64,000 nt of DNA from assembly GCA_016699875.1 (NCBI GenBank), contig CP064989.1, forward strand, positions 712,788 to 776,787. Direction: 5' to 3'. The stretch comes from Candidatus Moraniibacteriota bacterium. Lineage in GTDB: Bacteria; Patescibacteriota; Minisyncoccia; Moranbacterales; UBA1568. The position numbers and the translations under genes are program-made. A model generated the notes under the pieces. That model saw only the letters and a list, made by a program, of their open reading frames with translations, was not told the DNA's origin and searched no databases. Below are positions 50,090-60,482 of the stretch, in pieces; the stretch's first letter is position 1, and each line of letters begins with the position of its first letter.

Positions 50090-50218
50090 TCGTCATTCCC
50101 GTGAAAACGGGAATCCAGTTGCGACTCGTTCAGGATTGCATTCTGTGAATGAAACTTGCAACGATATTTGTTGAGGGTGAGTGGAACCTGGTTCCCCGCC
50201 TTCGCGGGGATGACGAGT
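50090..50218 (+). repeat. 129-bp hairpin-rich palindromic repeat element in the atpA-atpG intergenic region; same family as the in-frame copy in leuS
   Basis: Terminal inverted repeats CGTCATTCCCG / CGGGGATGACG. 5' hairpin ATTCCCGT-gaaa-ACGGGAAT (GNRA loop). 3' hairpin TCCCCGC-cttc-GCGGGGA. A central stem GTTGC...GCAAC. The 5' 27 nt and 3' ~25 nt are homologous to 56395-56467. Confidence 0.6.
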
Positions 50219-53811: not shown

Positions 53812-54918
53812 ATGAATCAAGAGGTTTTTGTGAAAATAACCCGATGGTTAGCGTATGCGGCGATTGGGGTATTGTTGGTTGCAATATTCATTGTCTTTTT
53901 CGGGAAGGGAATCAACCGCGGAACGTCGTACCAACAGAATGGGCTGGGAGTTTCCGGCGAGGCATCGTCTTGGCGGGGGATGAGCAATATGATGGGGGGA
54001 GATGCTGATGAATCTGGGGTTACGACAGAATCGTCGGTTCCGGTTGCGGCAGATGCGGCTGGATCGGGGTATGCCGGGAAAATGATGGCAGCGGGAAACC
54101 CCGACTTCTCGACGGTCGCGCCGGATATGATGGAGGGGAATAGTGCTGTAGCTGAAACGGAAAAACGCGTGGTGCGGAACGGAGATCTATCAATTCGCGT
54201 CGAAGACGCCGAATGGTCAGCGGACGAAATCGATCGCATCGCGACGCGGCTCGGCGGGTTTACGGCATCTCGGTCGATCAGTAGCAGCATGCCGGGGTAT
54301 CCGATGCCGATGGTGCAGGATGAATCAATGGGATACGGTATTTAAAAACAGTCGTCGAACGCTCCGCAAACCGGAGTGGTGACAATCAAAATTCCTTCTG
54401 ACAAGTTTGCCGAAGCAAATGCGGCGATTCGTAGCATCGCGAGTGTTGTATTGAATGAATCGTCGTCGGCGAGCGATGTGACAGCACAGTTTGCCGATCT
54501 TGAGGCACGTATCAAGAATAAGTATGCCGAGGAAGAAGCGTTTACCAAGATTCTTAATACGACATCGGGGAAGGTGGCGGATATTTTGCAGGTGACGCGC
54601 GAGCTTTCACGGGTTCGCAGTGAGATCGAACAGCTCGAAACACAGAAAAAGTATATGGAGTCGCAGACCGACATGGCGTCGATCTCGGTTTCTCTGAGTG
54701 AAGATGTGAAGGTGGGCACGACGACAAATTCCTGGCGGCCATGGCAAACCGTGAAGTCGGCTGTGAATGCTCTGATCTCCCAATGTCGAAATTTCATCGA
54801 CGGCGCGATCTATTTCGTGGTCTCGGTGGTTCCGGTGTTTCTGCTGTACCTTTTGGGAGTGTACGTGGTATACAAAGCTGGGAAAGGAATATATCGGAGA
54901 TTGTATCCAAGAGTTTAG
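53812..54918 (+). CDS. DUF4349-family membrane-anchored protein interrupted by an in-frame TAA (54343-54345). The track shows two same-frame ORFs, 53812..54345 and 54376..54918.
   Basis: N-terminal TM (LAYAAIGVLLVAIFIVFF). The DUF4349 core begins KRVVRNGDLSIRVEDAEWSADEIDRIATRLGGF before the stop and continues VTIKIPSDKFAEA...SSSASDVTAQFADLEARIKNK...LSRVRSEIEQLETQKKYMESQTDMASISVSL after it. A C-terminal TM follows. Both parts are in the same frame. Confidence 0.6.
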
Positions 54919-54957: not shown

Positions 54958-55428
54958 GTGTTCAAGATGCCAAGTTCGTTCTCCGTTTATTTGCGGCGAG
55001 GCAATGCCTTGTTCGTGTTGTTGTTCTTACTGGCAGACAAGAATATAGGGCTTCTCAAGGATGCCTATGTGCAAGGAGATGCGCACATATTCATTCGCCA
55101 ATGTAGATCTTTCAGATGTCCAATTGTGGATCCATGGGCTGCAAACATCCTTGCAGTCGCTTTGCTTGTCGGGTTGGACGGAATATCCGATGAGAACGAT
55201 GAGGAGGCAATTTCTTTATTGCGCAAAGTAACATCTATCGGGGGTTGTCCATCGGCATGGCATTCTCTCGGAGTGTGTTACTTGCACGGTATAGGGATGT
55301 CTCCGGATAGAAACGAAGCAACGCGGTGTTTCTTGGAGGGGGCAAAACGAGGATGCCTTCTTTGCCGTAGTAACTTTCACGATATCCCACTCCCGCATAA
55401 TTCAGGGAAGGTGATATCTCAACTGTAG
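54958..55428 (+). CDS. Sel1-like repeat (TPR-like) protein
   Basis: [33 protein letters not shown] fits the Sel1 repeat consensus. N-terminal hydrophobic segment. Confidence 0.5.
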
Positions 55429-55526
55429 TGAAAGGAGCTGTGTCAGTTTTGGCCAGCTCCTCATTTATTATCTTGAAAAACCCCCTTCTTCGGGCTAGGA
55501 TGGAGCTACTTGTTAAACTGTGGCCT

Positions 55527-58500
55527 ATGAAACATGCTTCATATGATCCGAAAGAAATAGAGCCGAAGTGGCAGAAATATTGGGAGGAGCAGGGGCTTTT
55601 TCATGCGAAGACCGGATCGAAAAAGAAGAAATTTTACGGGTTGGTCGAGTTTCCATACCCGTCTGGAGACGGGCTTCATACCGGGCATGTGCGCGGGTAT
55701 ACGGCGATGGATGTGATCGCACGGAAGCGGCGGCACGAAGGATTTGAAGTACTTTATCCGATCGGATGGGATGCGTTTGGACTCCCGACCGAGAATTTTG
55801 CTATCAAGCACGGCGTGCGTCCGGAAGTGGTGACGAAGAAAAACACGGATAATTTCCGGCGACAGATGCAGTCGCTCGGGTTTTCGTTTGACTGGTCGCG
55901 GGAAATAAATACGACCGATCCAGAATACTATAAGTGGACGCAGTGGATATTTCTTCAGCTTTTCAAAAAAGGGTTGGCATATAAACAGAAAATGGAAATC
56001 AACTGGTGTCCGTCATGCAAGATCGGTCTTGCGAATGAAGAAGCGCAGGGCGGCGTGTGCGAACGGTGTGGTGGTCCAACGGAAAAAAAAGAGAAAGAGC
56101 AGTGGATGTTGGCGATTACAAAATACGCCGATCGGTTGGACAAGGATTTGGACAGTGTTAACTATCTCGACAAGATAAAAGTTCAACAAAGAAACTGGAT
56201 CGGGAGGTCGGAGGGAGCGCTGGTGAAATTTAAAATTTCTTCCTCCTCCCACCCTCATCAAGATGAGAGTTCTTCTCGGTTAGAGGATCGGGAACGATAT
56301 ATCGAGGTATTCACGACGCGAGTGGATACGATTTTCGGGTGCACATATGTGGTGGTGGCGCCGGAGCACCACATTATTGCACATCTTTTGCAATGTCATT
56401 CCCGCGAAGGCGGGAATCCAGGCTCTGCGAACATTCTGGATCCCCGGGTCAAGCCCGAGGATGACAGCTTACTTTTGGTTGAGAATGCAGAGAAGATTCG
56501 AGAGTATATAGAAGAGGTGAAAAAGAAATCCGAGGAAGATCGGCTCGATGCGACGAAAGAAAAAACCGGCGTAAAGCTCGAAGGGATTGAGGCAGTGAAT
56601 CCGTTTACCGGTGAAAGTGTGCCGGTATTCGTTGCTGACTATGTATTGGGAAATTATGGCACGGGTGCGGTGATGGCAGTCCCGGCGCATGACGAACGGG
56701 ATTGGGAATTTGCGAAGAAGTACCGACTTCCCTTGAAATCGGTAGTTATTCCGAGTGTTGTAAATCAGAAGAATCTCCCGGTTCCAGGAAAATCAGTCGT
56801 GTTTCGAGAGACTATCAGTGCCATCGTGTATGACCCGAAGAAAAATAAGTATCTTGCTCTGAAGTGGAAAAAAAATGATTGGACTACATTCGTGATTGGC
56901 GGGGTGGAACAAGGGGAGGATGTTATTGATGCGGCAAAGCGAGAAGTTCGAGAGGAAACAGGCTATACCGATCTCAAATATATTCGGACTTTGGGCGGAC
57001 CGGTAGAGGCGAAATATTTCGTGTCACATAAAGACGAAAATCGCATGGCACATATACATGCCGTGTTGTTTGAATTGGAGAGTGAAGACAGAATATCTGT
57101 TTCAGAAGAGGAGAAAGAAAAACATCCGACAATATGGATTGAGGAATCGTCTCTTAGTCCGGATGTAATGTTTGATGTCGATGCTCCATTCTGGTTTGCT
57201 CGCCTAAAGTCTGAGGAAAATGAGGTTGTTACTGAAAGCGGCGTCCTCATTGAATCTGGAGAATTCTCCGGTCTGAAATCCGAAGAAGCGCGGGAGAAAA
57301 TGATCCAATGGCTGGAGGAAAAAGGACTCGGGAAGAAGCAGACGAATTACAAACTTCGAGACTGGGTATTTTCTCGGCAGCGATATTGGGGCGAGCCGAT
57401 TCCCTTGGTGAAATGTGATGCGTGCGGATGGGTACCGGTTTCCGAAGACGAGCTTCCTGTCGAATTGCCAAGAGTCGAGTCGTATACACCGACGGACACG
57501 GGGGAGTCGCCCCTCTCGGCGATGGAGGAATGGGTCGCGACGAAGTGTCCGAAGTGCGGCGGACCGGCACAGCGCGAGACGGACACGATGCCTAACTGGG
57601 CGGGATCGAGCTGGTACTTTCTTCGATACGCCGATCCGGAAAATACGAAAGCACTTGCATCAAAGAGCGCGCTCGAATATTGGACGCCCGTCGATTGGTA
57701 CAATGGCGGCATGGAGCACACGACGCTTCACCTCTTGTATTCTCGTTTTTGGCACAAGTTTCTCTATGATATCGGCGTAGTGCCGACCTCCGAGCCGTAT
57801 CAGAAGCGCACCTCGCATGGGCTTATCCTTGCCGAGGGCGGCGTCAAGATGAGCAAGTCGAAAGGGAATGTGGTGAATCCGGATGATATTGTGCGGCGGT
57901 TCGGCGCGGATACGCTTCGGGTGTACGAAATGTTCATGGGACCATTCGATCAAAATGTCGCCTGGAGTACGGAGAGTATTGCCGGGTCAAGACGGTTTTT
58001 GGAGAAAGTGTGGAAATTGGGTATTGGAATGAAGAATCAGGAAACGGGAAGAAAGAAGGAAGATGCTCACGCGGGAAATGTTTCCGTGAAAACTCTGCTG
58101 CATAAAACGATCAAAAAAGTGTCTGAGGATATCGAGGCGATGCGGTTTAATACGGCGATTAGCGCGCTCATGATTTTGGTGAATGAGATGGAGAAAACAG
58201 AGTCGATGTCGCGAGAAGATTTTGAAACGCTGCTCGTATTACTTTCTCCGTTTGCACCGCATGTTGCGGAAGAGCTCTGGAGTCTTGTCGGGAATGCGGG
58301 GTCAATTCTCTCGACCAAGTGGCCGGAAGCAAACCCGAAGTATCTCGTGGCAGATGAAGTGGAAGTGGTAGTGCAAGTCAACGGAAAACTTCGCGCGCGG
58401 CTTCGTATTGTCTCCGGATCGACGAGAGAAGAAGTGGAGAGCGCGGCACGTGCTGATCTTCTTGTGTCGAAGCATCTCGATGGAAAAGAAGTTCGAAAGA

Positions 58501-58544
58501 CCGTCTTTGTCCAAGACCGCCTGGTGAATTTCGTGGTGGGTTGA
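55527..58544 (+). CDS. leuS: Leucyl-tRNA synthetase carrying (i) a 24-aa insertion in the editing domain encoded by a repeat element and (ii) an embedded Nudix hydrolase domain
   Basis: HIGH-type HTGH, KMSKS (VKMSKSKGN), the LeuRS zinc knuckle ([12 protein letters not shown]...CERCGG), editing-domain markers ([19 protein letters not shown] ... [22 protein letters not shown]) and the C-terminal [11 protein letters not shown] domain. The track ORF starts at 55428; [21 protein letters not shown] at 55527 is the typical LeuRS start. Confidence 0.95.
56395..56467 (+). repeat. ~72-bp copy of the hairpin repeat element inserted in-frame in the leuS editing domain
   Basis: GTCATTCCCGCGAAGGCGGGAATCCAGG...CTGGATCCCCGGGTCAAGCCCGAGGATGACAG. 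Its ends are homologous to the atp-operon element at 50090-50218, including compensatory stem changes. It is translated as [25 protein letters not shown]. Confidence 0.55.
56755..57235 (+). other. Nudix hydrolase domain embedded in LeuRS, between the editing domain and the return to the catalytic core
   Basis: [51 protein letters not shown] contains a complete Nudix box (G-x5-E-x7-R-E-U-x-E-E-x-G-U). E. coli LeuRS has ~25 aa at this position versus ~165 aa here. Confidence 0.7.
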
Positions 58545-59039
58545 AGTTGACAGGCGTCCGGGAATTTGGCTAGGATAGCGGTGAGCTTTGCGAAACCGCA
58601 AGGCGGGGCAGTTGATTTACCAATTTGTTGAGGAGATTCGAGATGATCAAGAAACCAGTCATTTTCCCGATTGATGGACAAACGACATATACGAATGTGA
58701 TAGATTCGTTTTTCAATCTATTCCAACATGATGCGGCAAGAGAAATGGTTGGGATGGTTAAGTTTAACGATGCGTTGCACATCTCTCCTGGTGGAGGCAA
58801 GGAACTTATCACTGGAATTCGAGATGTTTCGAGAGAGAATGGATGGAGTATGGCGGAAATTTTCCTTGATCTGAAATTATTCGATGTCTCGGGGACGATT
58901 AGTAATATGCTAAAACAGTATGCTGAAATGTCCCCAGCAGTTATTACGGTGTCATCGGAGGTTTCATGCCAATCGCTCCTTAGAACCTGTTTACAATCTT
59001 CTGGTACACTGAGGACATAATCCTCAAACCAAAAGAACC

Positions 59040-59486
59040 ATGTATCCAAGCGACATAACCCGAGAACAATTCGAACACATCAGACCATTTCTCGAATCAA
59101 CCAGGAAGAGAACCAAACCAAAGACACTTGATTCCTATGACGTATTCAACGCTCTGCTCTACATTCTGGTCACGGGTTGCCAATGGAGGGCACTTCCCAA
59201 GGATTATCCAAAATGGCAGAGTGTCTATCGACACTTCCTTGTCTGGAAGGAACGAAAAAACAAACAGACAGAGAGTATGCTTGAGCAAGTCTTAAAAAAA
59301 TTGGTCGAACAAGAACGTATGAAAAATGGCAAACAATGCAAAACCAGTTTCTGCATCGTTGATGCTCAAAGTGTCAAGAATACAGATACGGCTCGAGAAA
59401 AAGGTTATGATGCAGGAAAAAAGTTTCCGGTATCAAGCGACATATTCTCGTTGACACCAACGGATTGCCGCATGCGTTCACGGTAA
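59040..59486 (+). CDS. IS5-family transposase OrfA (N-terminal HTH / DUF4096-like part)
   Basis: YDVFNALLYILVTGCQWRALPKDYPKWQSVYRHFLVWKE is typical of IS5/IS1031 transposase N-termini. Slippery heptamer A-AAA-AAG at ~59419-59425. Confidence 0.8.
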   Translation: MYPSDITREQFEHIRPFLESTRKRTKPKTLDSYDVFNALLYILVTGCQWRALPKDYPKWQSVYRHFLVWKERKNKQTESMLEQVLKKLVEQERMKNGKQCKTSFCIVDAQSVKNTDTAREKGYDAGKKFPVSSDIFSLTPTDCRMRSR

Positions 59487-59821
59487 CCACTGCTAACGTC
59501 ACTGATCGAAATGGAGCTATCCAAGCCGTCAAGGCAAACAAAAAACACCTTTCACGGGTGGAGAAACTCTTGACTGATGGTAGTTATACCGGAGAAAACT
59601 TCGCCAAAGCGATCAAAGCATGTATCGGTGCGGAAGTGGGAGTAGCTAAACGAAACGAATTGCATACGTTTGCCGTTCTTCCTCAGCGCTGGGTGGTCGA
59701 GAGAAGCTTCTCCTGGCTGGAGAAATGCCGAAGGCTCTGGAAGAATTGCGAACGGACACTGGATTCGAGCTTACAGATGATGGTTTTAAGTTTTGCTCGA
59801 TTGTTGTTGAAAAGATTGTAA
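59420..59821 (+). CDS. IS5-family transposase OrfB (DDE catalytic part), probably expressed as an OrfAB fusion by -1 frameshifting
   Basis: The -1 frame continues KVSGIKRHILVDTNGLPHAFTVTTANVTDRN...LTDGSYTGENF...PQRWVVERSFSWLEKCRRL (DDE_Tnp_1-like). The track ORF is 59465..59821. Confidence 0.75.
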   Translation, partial: KVSGIKRHILVDTNGLPHAFTVTTANVTDRNGAIQAVKANKKHLSRVEKLLTDGSYTGENFAKAIKACIGAEVGVAKRNELHTFAVLPQRWVVERSFSWLEKCRRLWKNCERTLDSSLQMMVLSFARLLLKRL

Positions 59822-60482
59822 ACAGGTTCTTAGGATACGTGAAATATTTCCGAGTGCACTCATTGCCTTGGTTGGAGCTCTTACGGATATCTCGGAGGAT
59901 GAATTCAGGAGGAAGCATGGAATGACTCCTGCAGAATATATCGCAGAAATGCTCCTGTTCTTCGAAGATGAAATTGGTGAGGAGAATCCGATAGGTGCTT
60001 TTGTATGTAGTCCGCTCGAAGTACGGTGTCTCAAGGATGAATTTGGTGACCGATTCAAGGCAATTGTCCCCGGAGTTCGGAGTTTATTCATGGAGCCGGA
60101 TCATCAGAAACGGGTGGCGAGTCCATACGACGCACTTCTGGCTGGTGCGGAATATTTGGTTATCGGTTCGCAGCTCAAGGAGGGTTTGAAAGCGGGGCTT
60201 TTTCAGGAAGATCGGGTGAATCGCACGAACGCAGAGATTAAACGTGCTTATACGCAGCTTGTTCACTGATAGCTAGCGAGTTTTAGGTGTCGAGAGAGCA
60301 TCAGAGACACTCTCTCACTTTCTAAAGTGGAGGAAATAGCTGGTACCCCGGTTCATGCGGTCTCAACATGTTCCGGACTTTTGCAGATGTTGGATGACCT
60401 CGGAATGAATCGAGAGGCAGATGCAATTCGATCATATCGAGAACAATATGGATTCTTCTAAAAGACGAAAAAGCCTGTTTAT

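What the first reader, a model, noticed from the sequence alone, without database searches (positions are those of the whole stretch)
56755..57235. Leucyl-tRNA synthetase with an embedded, apparently intact Nudix hydrolase domain
LeuRS here is ~1006 aa from its likely start, against ~800-880 aa in most bacteria. The extra sequence sits exactly between the end of the CP1 editing domain ([22 protein letters not shown]...KSVV) and the strand that returns to the catalytic core ([10 protein letters not shown]...[19 protein letters not shown]). About 165 residues occupy a position where E. coli has about 25. This insertion contains a full Nudix box, [23 protein letters not shown], flanked by the beta strands expected of a Nudix fold (ISAIVYD..., TFVIGG..., HIHAVLFEL). 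I am not aware of a Nudix hydrolase fused inside an aminoacyl-tRNA synthetase. Two functions are conceivable. One is hydrolysis of Ap4A/Np4N, which synthetases generate as side products. The other is hydrolysis of adenylate or other nucleotide by-products next to the editing site. The editing domain itself is unusually short.
Basis: partly seen in the sequence, partly recalled or inferred. Interest (0 to 1): 0.8.

Follow-up and report, generated by a model that had tools for sequence, protein, structure and literature searches.

The report
Nudix hydrolase domain inside leucyl-tRNA synthetase
The leucyl-tRNA synthetase of this tiny-genome (Patescibacteria/CPR) bacterium carries a complete, strongly conserved Nudix nucleotide-pyrophosphatase domain spliced into a loop of its proofreading domain; hundreds of related lineages share the arrangement, and I found no paper describing it.

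Summary
The gene at 55527-58544 (+) encodes a 1005-aa bacterial-type LeuRS, identical to an NCBI protein from a Candidatus Moraniibacteriota MAG. Its residues 408-567 (nt 56748-57227) replace a 14-aa loop of T. thermophilus LeuRS.

It is not a misassembly. About 114 of the 120 closest LeuRS relatives carry a Nudix domain, most at the same site, as do 41 of 45 matching GTDB species genomes across Patescibacteria. Some relatives have two or three copies flanking the editing domain.

Its dN/dS is 0.055-0.074, against 0.10-0.13 for the LeuRS core.

The site behaves as a swappable cassette. LeuRSs with 87% identical cores carry Nudix domains that are 35% identical, with sharp breakpoints. Others carry none, or a nucleotidyltransferase instead.

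Function is inferred only. The most likely role is an Mg-dependent pyrophosphohydrolase acting on Ap4A-type by-products. No literature describing this was found. I rate it a new variant of a known kind.

The parts
55527..58544 (+). leuS, leucyl-tRNA synthetase, 1005 aa plus stop codon
   Evidence: TIGR00396 scores 995 bits against a cut-off of 548. Best solved relative is 1h3n, E 1.4e-219. The protein is identical to NCBI protein P0005. HIGH-type HTGH lies at nt 55677 and KMSKS at nt 57846.
56202..56747 (+). CP1 editing domain, part before the insertion (aa 226-407). It includes TTRVDT (aa 263-268, nt 56313-56330) and [12 protein letters not shown] (nt 56658-56693).
   Evidence: Pfam PF13603 scores 187.5 bits. 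T263, T264, R265, D267, T268, G378, T379, G380, H388, D389, R391 and D392 are invariant in 91 LeuRSs.
56395..56466 (+). 72-nt palindromic repeat element translated in frame inside CP1 (aa 290-313); a side feature, not part of the Nudix insertion
   Evidence: Inverted repeats were found. Related copies lie at 50092-50214. The stretch is absent from P0006 and P0008. pLDDT is below 50 for aa 291-313.
56748..57227 (+). 160-aa insertion (aa 408-567) carrying the Nudix domain
   Evidence: It is unaligned against Tth LeuRS and replaces a 14-aa loop. Relatives without the insertion have 10-25 aa here.
56805..57155 (+). Nudix fold proper (aa 427-543)
56898..56966 (+). Nudix box [23 protein letters not shown] (aa 458-480)
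   Evidence: Located. G458, G459, E464, R472, E473, E476, E477 and G479 are at least 90% conserved. A strict box is present in 101 of 110 relatives.
57027..57044 (+). Subfamily motif H-K-x-x-N-R (aa 501-506), preceded by an aromatic pair Y497-F498
   Evidence: H501, K502, N505 and R506 are at least 90% conserved. K502 and N505 are invariant also in the standalone relatives.
57111..57113 (+). E529, a conserved acidic residue about 50 aa after the box; candidate extra metal ligand or catalytic base
   Evidence: At least 90% conserved. The role is inferred by analogy with E103 of C. elegans Ap4A hydrolase and E120 of E. coli RppH, which I recall from my own knowledge.
57228..57350 (+). C-terminal strand and helix of CP1 (aa 568-608, [13 protein letters not shown]...[10 protein letters not shown]) before the return to the catalytic core at YKLRDW
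   Evidence: Aligns to Tth 377-417. Covered by PF13603 profile positions up to 185/185 once the insertion is removed.

Best explanation
This is a functional bacterial-type LeuRS with an autonomous Nudix pyrophosphohydrolase module inserted into a surface hairpin loop near the C-terminal end of its CP1 editing domain. The synthetic site, the zinc cysteines and the editing site are all intact; the leucine-specific domain is absent.

The module belongs to a Nudix subfamily found almost only inside the LeuRS of Patescibacteria. It is kept by purifying selection at least as strong as that on the synthetase. It is nonetheless accessory and exchangeable, because orthologous, syntenic leuS genes carry divergent Nudix alleles, no insert, or a nucleotidyltransferase at the same site.

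Most likely mechanism (inferred): the Nudix box glutamates hold Mg2+. The conserved basic residues R427 and H501-K502-x-x-N505-R506 bind a polyphosphate chain, and the aromatic pair Y497-F498 stacks a base. The module would then cleave dinucleoside polyphosphates (Ap4A, Ap3A, Ap4N), or an equivalent 5'-polyphosphate-linked nucleotide, to ATP and AMP. Synthetases make these compounds when the aminoacyl-adenylate reacts with ATP or another NTP. Tethering the hydrolase to LeuRS would clear and recycle them at the source.

Shown: the fold, the motifs, the insertion point, conservation, selection, distribution and cassette exchange. Inferred: catalysis, the substrate, and functional coupling to LeuRS.
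For: - Catalytic residues are kept. R472, E473, E476, E477 and E464 are at least 90% conserved in 87 cassettes, and a strict box is present in 101/110.
- Selection: dN/dS is 0.055-0.074 in the Nudix region, against 0.10-0.13 in the core and 0.11-0.16 in CP1. dN is 0.06-0.11 against 0.14-0.18.
- LeuRS specificity: of the 149 best 50%-identity clusters, 107 are LeuRS-linked by blastp, 4 more by Pfam, and no other host protein was seen. All nine multi-domain hits tested are LeuRS with 2-3 Nudix copies.
- Placement is always internal, at the two edges of CP1, never terminal.
- An aromatic residue lies 17 aa after the box. Dunn et al. 1999 proposed this spacing as a mark of ApnA hydrolases (my own knowledge).
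- Synthetases are the main source of Ap4A and Nudix enzymes degrade it (PMC10148737).
- A standalone relative sits in a gmk-adk-nudix-ndk nucleotide-kinase cluster.
Against: - No biochemical data exist for any member.
- Sequence identity to characterised Nudix enzymes is only 13-27%. The best structural match (2azw) is itself uncharacterised, and all NCBIfam equivalog scores are far below their cut-offs. The substrate class is therefore open.
- To my knowledge LeuRS is not among the strongest Ap4A producers in E. coli.
- I could not obtain model coordinates, so the position of the Nudix active site relative to the synthetic or editing site is unknown.
- Two or three copies per protein, degenerate middle copies, cassette swapping, and replacement by an unrelated nucleotidyltransferase are not obviously predicted by a simple by-product-clearing role.
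- Close relatives do without the domain, and no Nudix gene lies next to their leuS.
Confidence: 0.5

Rival explanations
1. Hitch-hiking housecleaning enzyme. The Nudix domain is an ordinary nucleotide-sanitising or salvage hydrolase that is merely co-expressed with an essential, constitutively made protein in a genome with little regulatory capacity. It has no mechanistic link to leucylation.
For: - The domain is dispensable. Syntenic orthologues lack it.
- The cassettes recombine freely.
- Other unrelated hydrolase or transferase domains (alpha/beta hydrolase, HAD, nucleotidyltransferase) occupy the same or the neighbouring loop.
- A standalone relative sits among nucleotide kinases.
Against: - This Nudix subfamily is found almost exclusively in LeuRS. 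No other host was seen among 149 clusters.
- It is always in internal CP1 loops rather than at a terminus, which would be the easy way to fuse.
- It is retained across several Patescibacteria classes.
Confidence: 0.2
2. RNA-end enzyme. The domain acts on the tRNA or another RNA bound to LeuRS, in the manner of RppH, DCP2 or AvrM14. It would remove a 5' polyphosphate or an Np4A/NAD-type cap, or repair a chemically modified acceptor end (for example a pyrophosphorylated 3' CCA). It may be part of a conflict or repair toolkit together with the alternative cassettes.
For: - The domain sits on CP1, the domain that binds the tRNA 3' end (established LeuRS knowledge).
- Cassette turnover, and alternative nucleotidyltransferase, esterase-like and phosphatase-like cargo, resemble variable conflict loci.
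- One standalone relative lies next to thrS and miaA.
Against: - RppH equivalog models score 16-25 bits against cut-offs of 116-259.
- No RNA-binding extension is evident.
- There is no direct evidence that tRNA-Leu in these organisms carries such ends.
- The proximity of the Nudix cleft to the acceptor end could not be tested.
Confidence: 0.15
3. Adenylate-directed hydrolase. The domain destroys non-cognate aminoacyl-adenylates, acting as an extra pre-transfer editing site, or it destroys adenylate-mimicking LeuRS inhibitors.
For: - The domain is located on the proofreading domain of a synthetase whose accuracy depends on editing.
- NCBI curates an IleRS family with an embedded acetyltransferase domain (NF040702, listed). 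That shows enzymatic add-ons do occur in class Ia synthetases.
Against: - Nudix enzymes attack a pyrophosphate linkage held by metals on two phosphates. An acyl-phosphate with a single phosphate is not a typical substrate (my own knowledge).
- The CP1 hydrolytic site is fully intact, so there is no evident need for this.
- To my knowledge, the enzymes known to hydrolyse aminoacyl-adenylates belong to the HIT family.
Confidence: 0.07
4. Non-catalytic module. The Nudix fold serves as a nucleotide sensor or as a structural or interaction domain.
For: - In LeuRSs with two or three copies, the middle copy often has a degenerate box, with Q in place of E and A in place of R.
Against: - In the window protein and in 101/110 relatives the full catalytic box is intact. 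The metal-binding glutamates are among the most conserved positions of the cassette.
- dN/dS is very low.
Confidence: 0.05
5. Assembly chimera or mis-join.
For: GC content is somewhat lower across the insert (0.44-0.46) than just downstream (0.51-0.58).
Against: - The reading frame is continuous.
- A separate 952-nt contig from run SRR11673978 spans both junctions and differs only by homopolymer indels.
- More than 100 homologues from independent assemblies share the architecture and insertion point.
- The predicted N- and C-termini of the insert pair as neighbouring strands.
Confidence: 0.01

Closest known systems
Bacterial LeuRS (T. thermophilus 1h3n/2byt; E. coli 4aq7/3zgz)
   Same: Full collinear alignment, E 1e-219 and 1e-193. 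Shares HIGH, KMSKS, the zinc cysteines, and CP1 inserted after the Zn-1 module with its threonine-rich and GTG/AHD editing motifs.
   Different: A 160-aa Nudix domain replaces a 14-aa CP1 loop. There is also a 24-aa repeat-derived loop and a 15-aa low-complexity loop in CP1. The leucine-specific domain (Tth 595-636) is missing.
Nudix dinucleoside-polyphosphate hydrolases (lupin Ap4A hydrolase 1f3y/1jkn, A. aeolicus aq_158 3i7u, C. elegans 1ktg, M. tuberculosis Rv2985 9cxx, T. thermophilus Ndx1 1vc8)
   Different: Only 17-22% identity. Those enzymes are free-standing. The H-K-x-x-N-R motif, R427 and W537 are specific to this subfamily. No activity data exist.
RNA 5'-end Nudix hydrolases (E. coli RppH 4s2x/7sp3, DCP2, flax-rust AvrM14-A/B 8dp8)
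   Different: RppH equivalog models score far below their cut-offs. No RNA substrate is known here, and the domain is embedded in a synthetase.
E. faecalis MutT/Nudix family protein 2azw
   Different: 14-15% identity. It is a structural-genomics entry with no assigned substrate, so it does not help to name the function.
Other enzymes of the HIGH-motif nucleotidyltransferase superfamily fused to a Nudix domain (NadM-Nudix type NMN adenylyltransferases)
   Same: An adenylate-forming Rossmann-like HIGH enzyme is joined in one chain to a Nudix hydrolase that degrades a product-related dinucleotide (described in PMC7824862).
   Different: That case is a terminal fusion, not an insertion into an editing domain. 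The host enzyme and substrate differ (NAD, ADP-ribose).
IleRS with embedded N-acetyltransferase domain (NCBIfam NF040702 'ileS_w_GNAT')
   Same: A class Ia synthetase carrying an extra small-molecule-modifying enzyme domain, curated as an exception family (listed).
   Different: Different synthetase and different added fold. The window protein scores only 76 bits against a cut-off of 1999. No comparable curated model exists for LeuRS with Nudix.

Membership tests
Bacterial-type leucyl-tRNA synthetase (TIGR00396 leuS_bact) | Whole-protein score above the curated equivalog cut-off | tested here: met
   995.1 bits against a cut-off of 548.4, matched in 4 stretches because of the insertions.
Bacterial-type leucyl-tRNA synthetase (TIGR00396 leuS_bact) | Class I signature motifs HIGH and KMSKS | tested here: met
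   HTGH at aa 51-54 and KMSKS at aa 774-778. H51, G53, H54, K774, M775, S776 and K777 are invariant in 91 sequences.
Bacterial-type leucyl-tRNA synthetase (TIGR00396 leuS_bact) | CP1 editing domain with the threonine-rich motif and the catalytic Asp of GTG...AHD | tested here: met
   PF13603 scores 187.5 bits and covers the profile to 185/185 once the insertion is removed. TTRVDT and PAHD are invariant.
Bacterial-type leucyl-tRNA synthetase (TIGR00396 leuS_bact) | Leucine-specific domain before KMSKS (present in T. thermophilus and E. coli; not universal) | tested here: not met
   Tth residues 595-636 have no counterpart; the query runs straight from aa 773 to aa 774. To my knowledge this domain is known to be dispensable in some bacteria, so its absence does not exclude membership.
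Bacterial-type leucyl-tRNA synthetase (TIGR00396 leuS_bact) | Leucylation of tRNA-Leu and hydrolysis of mischarged tRNA | not testable with these tools
   Needs enzyme assays.
Nudix hydrolase superfamily (PF00293) | Score above the Pfam gathering threshold | tested here: met
   48.0 bits in the whole protein and 51.6 bits for the segment, against 21.1.
Nudix hydrolase superfamily (PF00293) | Nudix box GX5EX7REUXEEXGU | tested here: met
   [23 protein letters not shown] fits the pattern, with Y at the last U. The box is conserved at 90% or more across the family.
Nudix hydrolase superfamily (PF00293) | Alpha/beta/alpha sandwich fold with the box on a loop-helix-loop | tested here: met
Nudix hydrolase superfamily (PF00293) | Divalent-cation-dependent hydrolysis of a nucleoside diphosphate linked to X | not testable with these tools
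   Inferred only, from conserved catalytic residues and a dN/dS of 0.055-0.074.
Nudix ApnA (dinucleoside polyphosphate) hydrolase subgroup | Aromatic residue (Tyr) 16-18 residues after the box (Dunn et al. 1999, my own knowledge) | tested here: inconclusive
   Y497 lies 17 residues after Y480, and an aromatic pair [YF][FY] is kept in all 17 cassettes aligned. However, this mark alone is not diagnostic.
Nudix ApnA (dinucleoside polyphosphate) hydrolase subgroup | Closest characterised relatives are ApnA hydrolases | tested here: inconclusive
   The best profile hit is 1f3y Ap4A hydrolase at E 1.8e-8. Decapping enzymes, DHNTP pyrophosphatase and ADP-ribose pyrophosphatases follow within 1-2 orders of magnitude.
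RNA pyrophosphohydrolase RppH (NCBIfam PRK00714 equivalogs) | Score above the equivalog cut-off | tested here: not met
   16-25 bits against cut-offs of 116-259. Structural similarity only.

The most novel reading that the evidence does not exclude
The two edges of the CP1 editing domain of Patescibacteria LeuRS form a recombination-driven cassette platform. Interchangeable small enzymes are plugged in next to the site that handles the tRNA 3' end: one to three Nudix domains, a pol-beta-type nucleotidyltransferase, alpha/beta hydrolases, and HAD phosphatases. They would work on the acceptor end of tRNA-Leu or on nucleotide-like molecules bound to the synthetase. Their tasks could be repairing toxin-modified or damaged tRNA ends, or destroying adenylate-mimicking inhibitors. 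That would make an essential synthetase a modular repair and defence hub, a role not described for any aminoacyl-tRNA synthetase.
Probability: 0.15. Interest if true: 0.9.

Novelty: new variant of a known kind. Interest (0 to 1): 0.7.

Why it matters
Aminoacyl-tRNA synthetases are among the best-studied enzymes, and new catalytic domains inside their cores are rare.

This finding shows a second, unrelated hydrolase wired into the proofreading domain of LeuRS. It is conserved across a large part of the bacterial tree (the Patescibacteria) and is under selection as strong as that on the synthetase itself.

If the domain removes Ap4A-type products at their source, it would be the first case of a synthetase carrying its own alarmone or by-product eraser. 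That is relevant to how ultra-small, nucleotide-auxotrophic cells control dinucleotide signals and recycle ATP.

If it acts on RNA ends or inhibitors, it opens a new class of synthetase-borne repair or resistance functions.

The sharp cassette exchange at a fixed site in an essential gene is also a clean natural example of domain shuffling by homologous recombination.

The hypotheses are directly testable, because the 160-aa domain is predicted to fold on its own.

Tried and rejected
- Misassembly: rejected.
- Identity with the known leucine-specific domain: rejected, because that domain lies elsewhere and is absent here.
- 'Short editing domain': rejected.
- Rosetta-stone test: I looked for a separate Nudix gene next to leuS in syntenic relatives whose LeuRS lacks the insert. 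None was present within 6-8 kb either side.
- Other Nudix boxes in the 64-kb window: none.
- Assigning a substrate class from curated models: all NCBIfam Nudix equivalogs score far below their cut-offs. The PDB sequence search with the single sequence gave only E about 0.003-0.01. The best fold match is uncharacterised.
- Literature: seven full-text searches combining LeuRS or leucyl-tRNA synthetase, Nudix, CPR/Patescibacteria/Parcubacteria, fusion and Ap4A found no description of this architecture. Three candidate papers read by keyword were irrelevant.
- AFDB50 fold search: the library was not available.
- Spatial relation of the Nudix cleft to the LeuRS sites: model coordinates and PAE are not exposed, so I could not measure it.
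The 45 loci are therefore a lower bound.
Full report
**1. The observation**

The window carries one long ORF at 55428-58544 (+).
- Its likely start is the Met at nt 55527, giving 1005 aa. This sequence is 100% identical to an NCBI protein named 'class I tRNA ligase family protein' from a Candidatus Moraniibacteriota MAG, on a 1,088,644-bp contig.
- It is a bacterial-type LeuRS. TIGR00396 scores 995 bits against a cut-off of 548. The best solved relatives are T. thermophilus and E. coli LeuRS, at E 1e-219 and 1e-193.

In the alignment with T. thermophilus LeuRS, query residues 408-567 have no partner and replace Tth residues 363-376.

The segment is a Nudix domain by several measures.
- Pfam NUDIX scores 48.0 bits in context and 51.6 bits alone; the gathering score is 21.1.
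- It contains a complete Nudix box, [23 protein letters not shown].
- AlphaFold2 with a 91-sequence alignment gave a confident full-length model (pLDDT 86.7, pTM 0.78), in which the insertion is as well defined as the core.
- The segment modelled alone reached pLDDT 93.4, and its first and last strands pair with each other, as expected for a domain plugged into a hairpin.
- Foldseek found 557 PDB matches at E<=1e-3, and all 50 listed are Nudix-family proteins.

**2.

The insertion is not between the editing domain and the return strand. It lies inside the editing domain.
- With residues 408-567 deleted in silico, the Pfam LeuRS editing-domain model aligns without a break to its last position, 185/185, through [13 protein letters not shown]...WLEE.
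- In the native protein, the aligned stretch stops at profile position 144.

The editing domain is not short.
- The threonine-rich TTRVDT and the GTG...PAHD motif, with its catalytic Asp, are invariant in 91 aligned LeuRSs.
- The domain even holds two additional loops.

What is missing is the leucine-specific domain upstream of KMSKS.

**3. Not an artefact, and not rare**

- A separate 952-nt contig from run SRR11673978 covers both junctions. It differs from the window only by homopolymer indels.
- Of the 120 best LeuRS relatives (50-76% identity), 113 carry a precomputed PF00293 hit, and one more has the box by pattern.
- The distance between the PAHD motif and YKLRDW is 208-221 aa in nearly all of them. 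It is 68-84 aa in the few relatives without an insert.
- A full-library search with the 177-aa segment found 501 clusters (at 50% identity) with E<=1e-3, and 225 with E<=1e-10.
- Of the best 149 clusters, 107 contain LeuRS sequence by blastp and four more by Pfam. A further 34 are short (up to 260 aa). No other host protein appeared.
- All nine multi-copy hits I scanned are LeuRSs with two or three Nudix domains, before and/or after CP1. Where CP1 is visible, 79 have the domain after CP1, 5 before, and 8 both.
- In multi-copy proteins, the middle copy often has a degenerate box.
- In GTDB species representatives, at least 45 loci matched. Of these, 36 show the order N-core, CP1, Nudix, C-core on one strand, and five more carry a Nudix domain within leuS: four upstream of CP1 and one at a contig end.
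- Their labels include Moranii-, Taylor-, Magasanik-, Parcu-, Gracili- and Saccharibacteria.

**4. Evidence that the domain is functional**

Conserved positions across 87 cassettes are the following.
- The metal-binding and catalytic positions of the box (E464, R472, E473, E476, E477) are at least 90% conserved.
- So are a set of subfamily-specific residues: R427, W452, H501, K502, N505, R506, F515, L517, E529 and W537.
- K502 and N505, R427 and W537 are invariant even when divergent cassettes and standalone relatives are added.
- A strict box is present in 101 of 110 relatives.

I ran Nei-Gojobori estimates between the window gene and its two closest relatives.
- dN/dS is 0.055-0.074 for the Nudix region, 0.10-0.13 for the LeuRS core, and 0.11-0.16 for CP1.
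- dN is 0.06-0.11 for the Nudix region, against 0.14-0.18 for the core.
- Synonymous sites are near saturation, and one comparison was not computable. The ratios are therefore rough, but the direction is clear.

The Nudix domain is at least as constrained as the essential enzyme around it.

**5. The site is an exchangeable cassette**

- Identity to the window protein in the core and in the Nudix region is uncorrelated (r = 0.07).
- Within a single LeuRS clade (core identity at least 67%), I found three divergent Nudix types, no insert at all, and a different domain. The different domain is a pol-beta-type nucleotidyltransferase: PF10706, 37.8 bits against a cut-off of 21.
- P0008 and P0011 are 90-100% identical in protein and 82-98% in DNA on both sides. 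Across aa 361-558, protein identity falls to 5-60% (nucleotide identity 28-70%), with sharp edges. This is the signature of replacement by homologous recombination through the conserved flanks.
- Gene order (atp operon, DUF4349, Sel1, leuS, OMP-decarboxylase-like, RNase T) is the same in relatives with the domain and without it. These are therefore orthologues, and the domain is accessory.
- Further relatives add alpha/beta-hydrolase or HAD domains in front of CP1.

**6. What it probably does**

No curated Nudix subfamily model comes near its cut-off. The best fold match is uncharacterised.

A profile of 17 cassettes finds the following among solved structures:
- first, lupin Ap4A hydrolase (E 1.8e-8);
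- next, the decapping effectors AvrM14-A/B, which align over the whole domain including the K..R of the subfamily motif;
- then a DHNTP pyrophosphatase, ADP-ribose pyrophosphatases, the Aquifex Ap4A hydrolase, DCP2 and RppH.

Structural neighbours include RppH, mycobacterial MutT1/Rv2985 (ApnA hydrolases) and Ndx1.

Three features point to a nucleotide joined to a polyphosphate chain, that is, the Ap4A, cap or 5'-triphosphate group of substrates:
- three conserved basic residues and a histidine outside the box;
- an aromatic pair 17-18 residues after the box;
- a conserved Glu about 50 residues after the box.

Synthetases are the main cellular source of Ap4A, and Nudix enzymes such as RppH degrade it to ATP and AMP (PMC10148737).

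My best explanation is therefore a tethered dinucleoside-polyphosphate hydrolase that clears and recycles by-products of the adenylate intermediate. Its exclusive association with LeuRS and its strictly internal placement argue against mere co-expression. By contrast, several observations are not predicted by this simple model and keep the RNA-end and conflict reading alive: multiple copies, cassette turnover, replacement by a nucleotidyltransferase, and loss of the domain in close relatives.

I could not measure where the Nudix cleft points, because model coordinates are not exposed.

**7. Novelty**

The sequences are in public databases with automatic Pfam labels. NCBI names the protein only 'class I tRNA ligase family protein'. 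No NCBIfam model for this architecture appeared among the hits, although one exists for an IleRS with a GNAT domain.

Seven full-text searches found no paper that describes a Nudix domain in LeuRS or in any synthetase of the CPR. The library lacks most subscription journals, so absence is not proof.

I rate this a new variant of a known kind: a known enzyme with an undescribed, conserved, apparently catalytic insertion, and an unexpected cassette behaviour.

**8. Verdict**

- Interest is 0.7.
- Confidence is about 0.8 that the module is a catalytically competent Nudix hydrolase kept for a function.
- Confidence is about 0.35 that its substrate is of the Ap4A type.

Noticed in passing
window 56395-56466 (leuS aa 290-313); related copies at window 50092-50118 (+) and 50188-50214 (-): A 72-nt palindromic element (GTCATTCCCGCGAAGGCGGGAATCCAG...CTGGATCCCCGGGTCAAGCCCGAGGATGAC) is translated in frame inside the CP1 editing domain as [25 protein letters not shown]. 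The model shows it as a disordered loop (pLDDT below 50). It is absent from the two closest LeuRSs, yet a nearly identical peptide ([23 protein letters not shown]) sits in the same loop of a LeuRS whose core is only 65% identical (P0039). A longer copy (~123 nt) with the same terminal inverted repeats lies in the atpA-atpG intergenic spacer. It looks like a MITE-like repeat that can insert into coding sequence, as Rickettsia palindromic elements do.
   Followed up: partly
window 58625-60269: An IS5-family insertion sequence at 59040-59821 has two overlapping transposase ORFs (DUF4096, then DDE_Tnp_1). It splits an OMP-decarboxylase-like gene into an N-terminal ORF (58625-59020) and a C-terminal ORF (59868-60269; PF00215, 23 bits). 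Relatives have one intact gene of 243-252 aa at this position, directly after leuS.
   Followed up: partly
window 53812-54918: The DUF4349 gene upstream of leuS is broken into two ORFs: 53812-54345 and 54376-54918 (PF14257 profile positions 2-40 and 51-212). Syntenic relatives have a single protein of 342-372 aa. This is either a pseudogene or a sequencing error.
   Followed up: no
window about 57840-57850 (leuS aa 773-774): This LeuRS has no leucine-specific domain. T. thermophilus residues 595-636, just before KMSKS, have no counterpart.
   Followed up: partly
related proteins P0018, P0027, P0036; P0129, P0030, P0046, P0049, P0097, P0103, P0114; P0034, P0041: Other enzyme domains occupy the same or the neighbouring CP1 loop in related LeuRSs. 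A pol-beta-type nucleotidyltransferase (PF10706/PF14907) sits exactly at the Nudix site. Alpha/beta-hydrolase domains (PF06821, PF00561, PF12697, PF12146) and HAD domains (PF13419, PF00702) sit in front of CP1. One protein reaches 1722 aa.
   Followed up: partly
related proteins P0125, P0127, P0128, P0129, P0143, P0159: LeuRSs with two or three Nudix domains exist. In several of them the middle copy has lost key box residues (for example GGPENGQTPEEGAIAEIMEETG), suggesting an inactive copy retained for another role.
   Followed up: partly
L053 6001-8883 versus L054 1440-4376 (P0008 versus P0011): Besides the Nudix cassette, the C-terminal part of these two otherwise near-identical leuS genes (about aa 785-900, the anticodon-binding region) also drops to 20-50% identity. 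P0011 additionally has a 14-aa insert, PPARNASASADAGG. The leuS genes of this clade are therefore recombination mosaics in more than one place.
   Followed up: no
L047 1170-5356 and L049 1830-5083: Standalone relatives of the cassette (P0003, P0004) lie in two kinds of neighbourhood. One is a cluster of guanylate kinase, adenylate kinase, Met aminopeptidase, a second Nudix gene and NDP kinase. The other is directly upstream of thrS and miaA.
   Followed up: no
window 56750-57350: GC content is 0.44-0.46 across the Nudix insert, against 0.51-0.58 in the leuS sequence just downstream. This is compatible with a separate origin for the cassette or with its Lys/Glu-rich composition.
   Followed up: no
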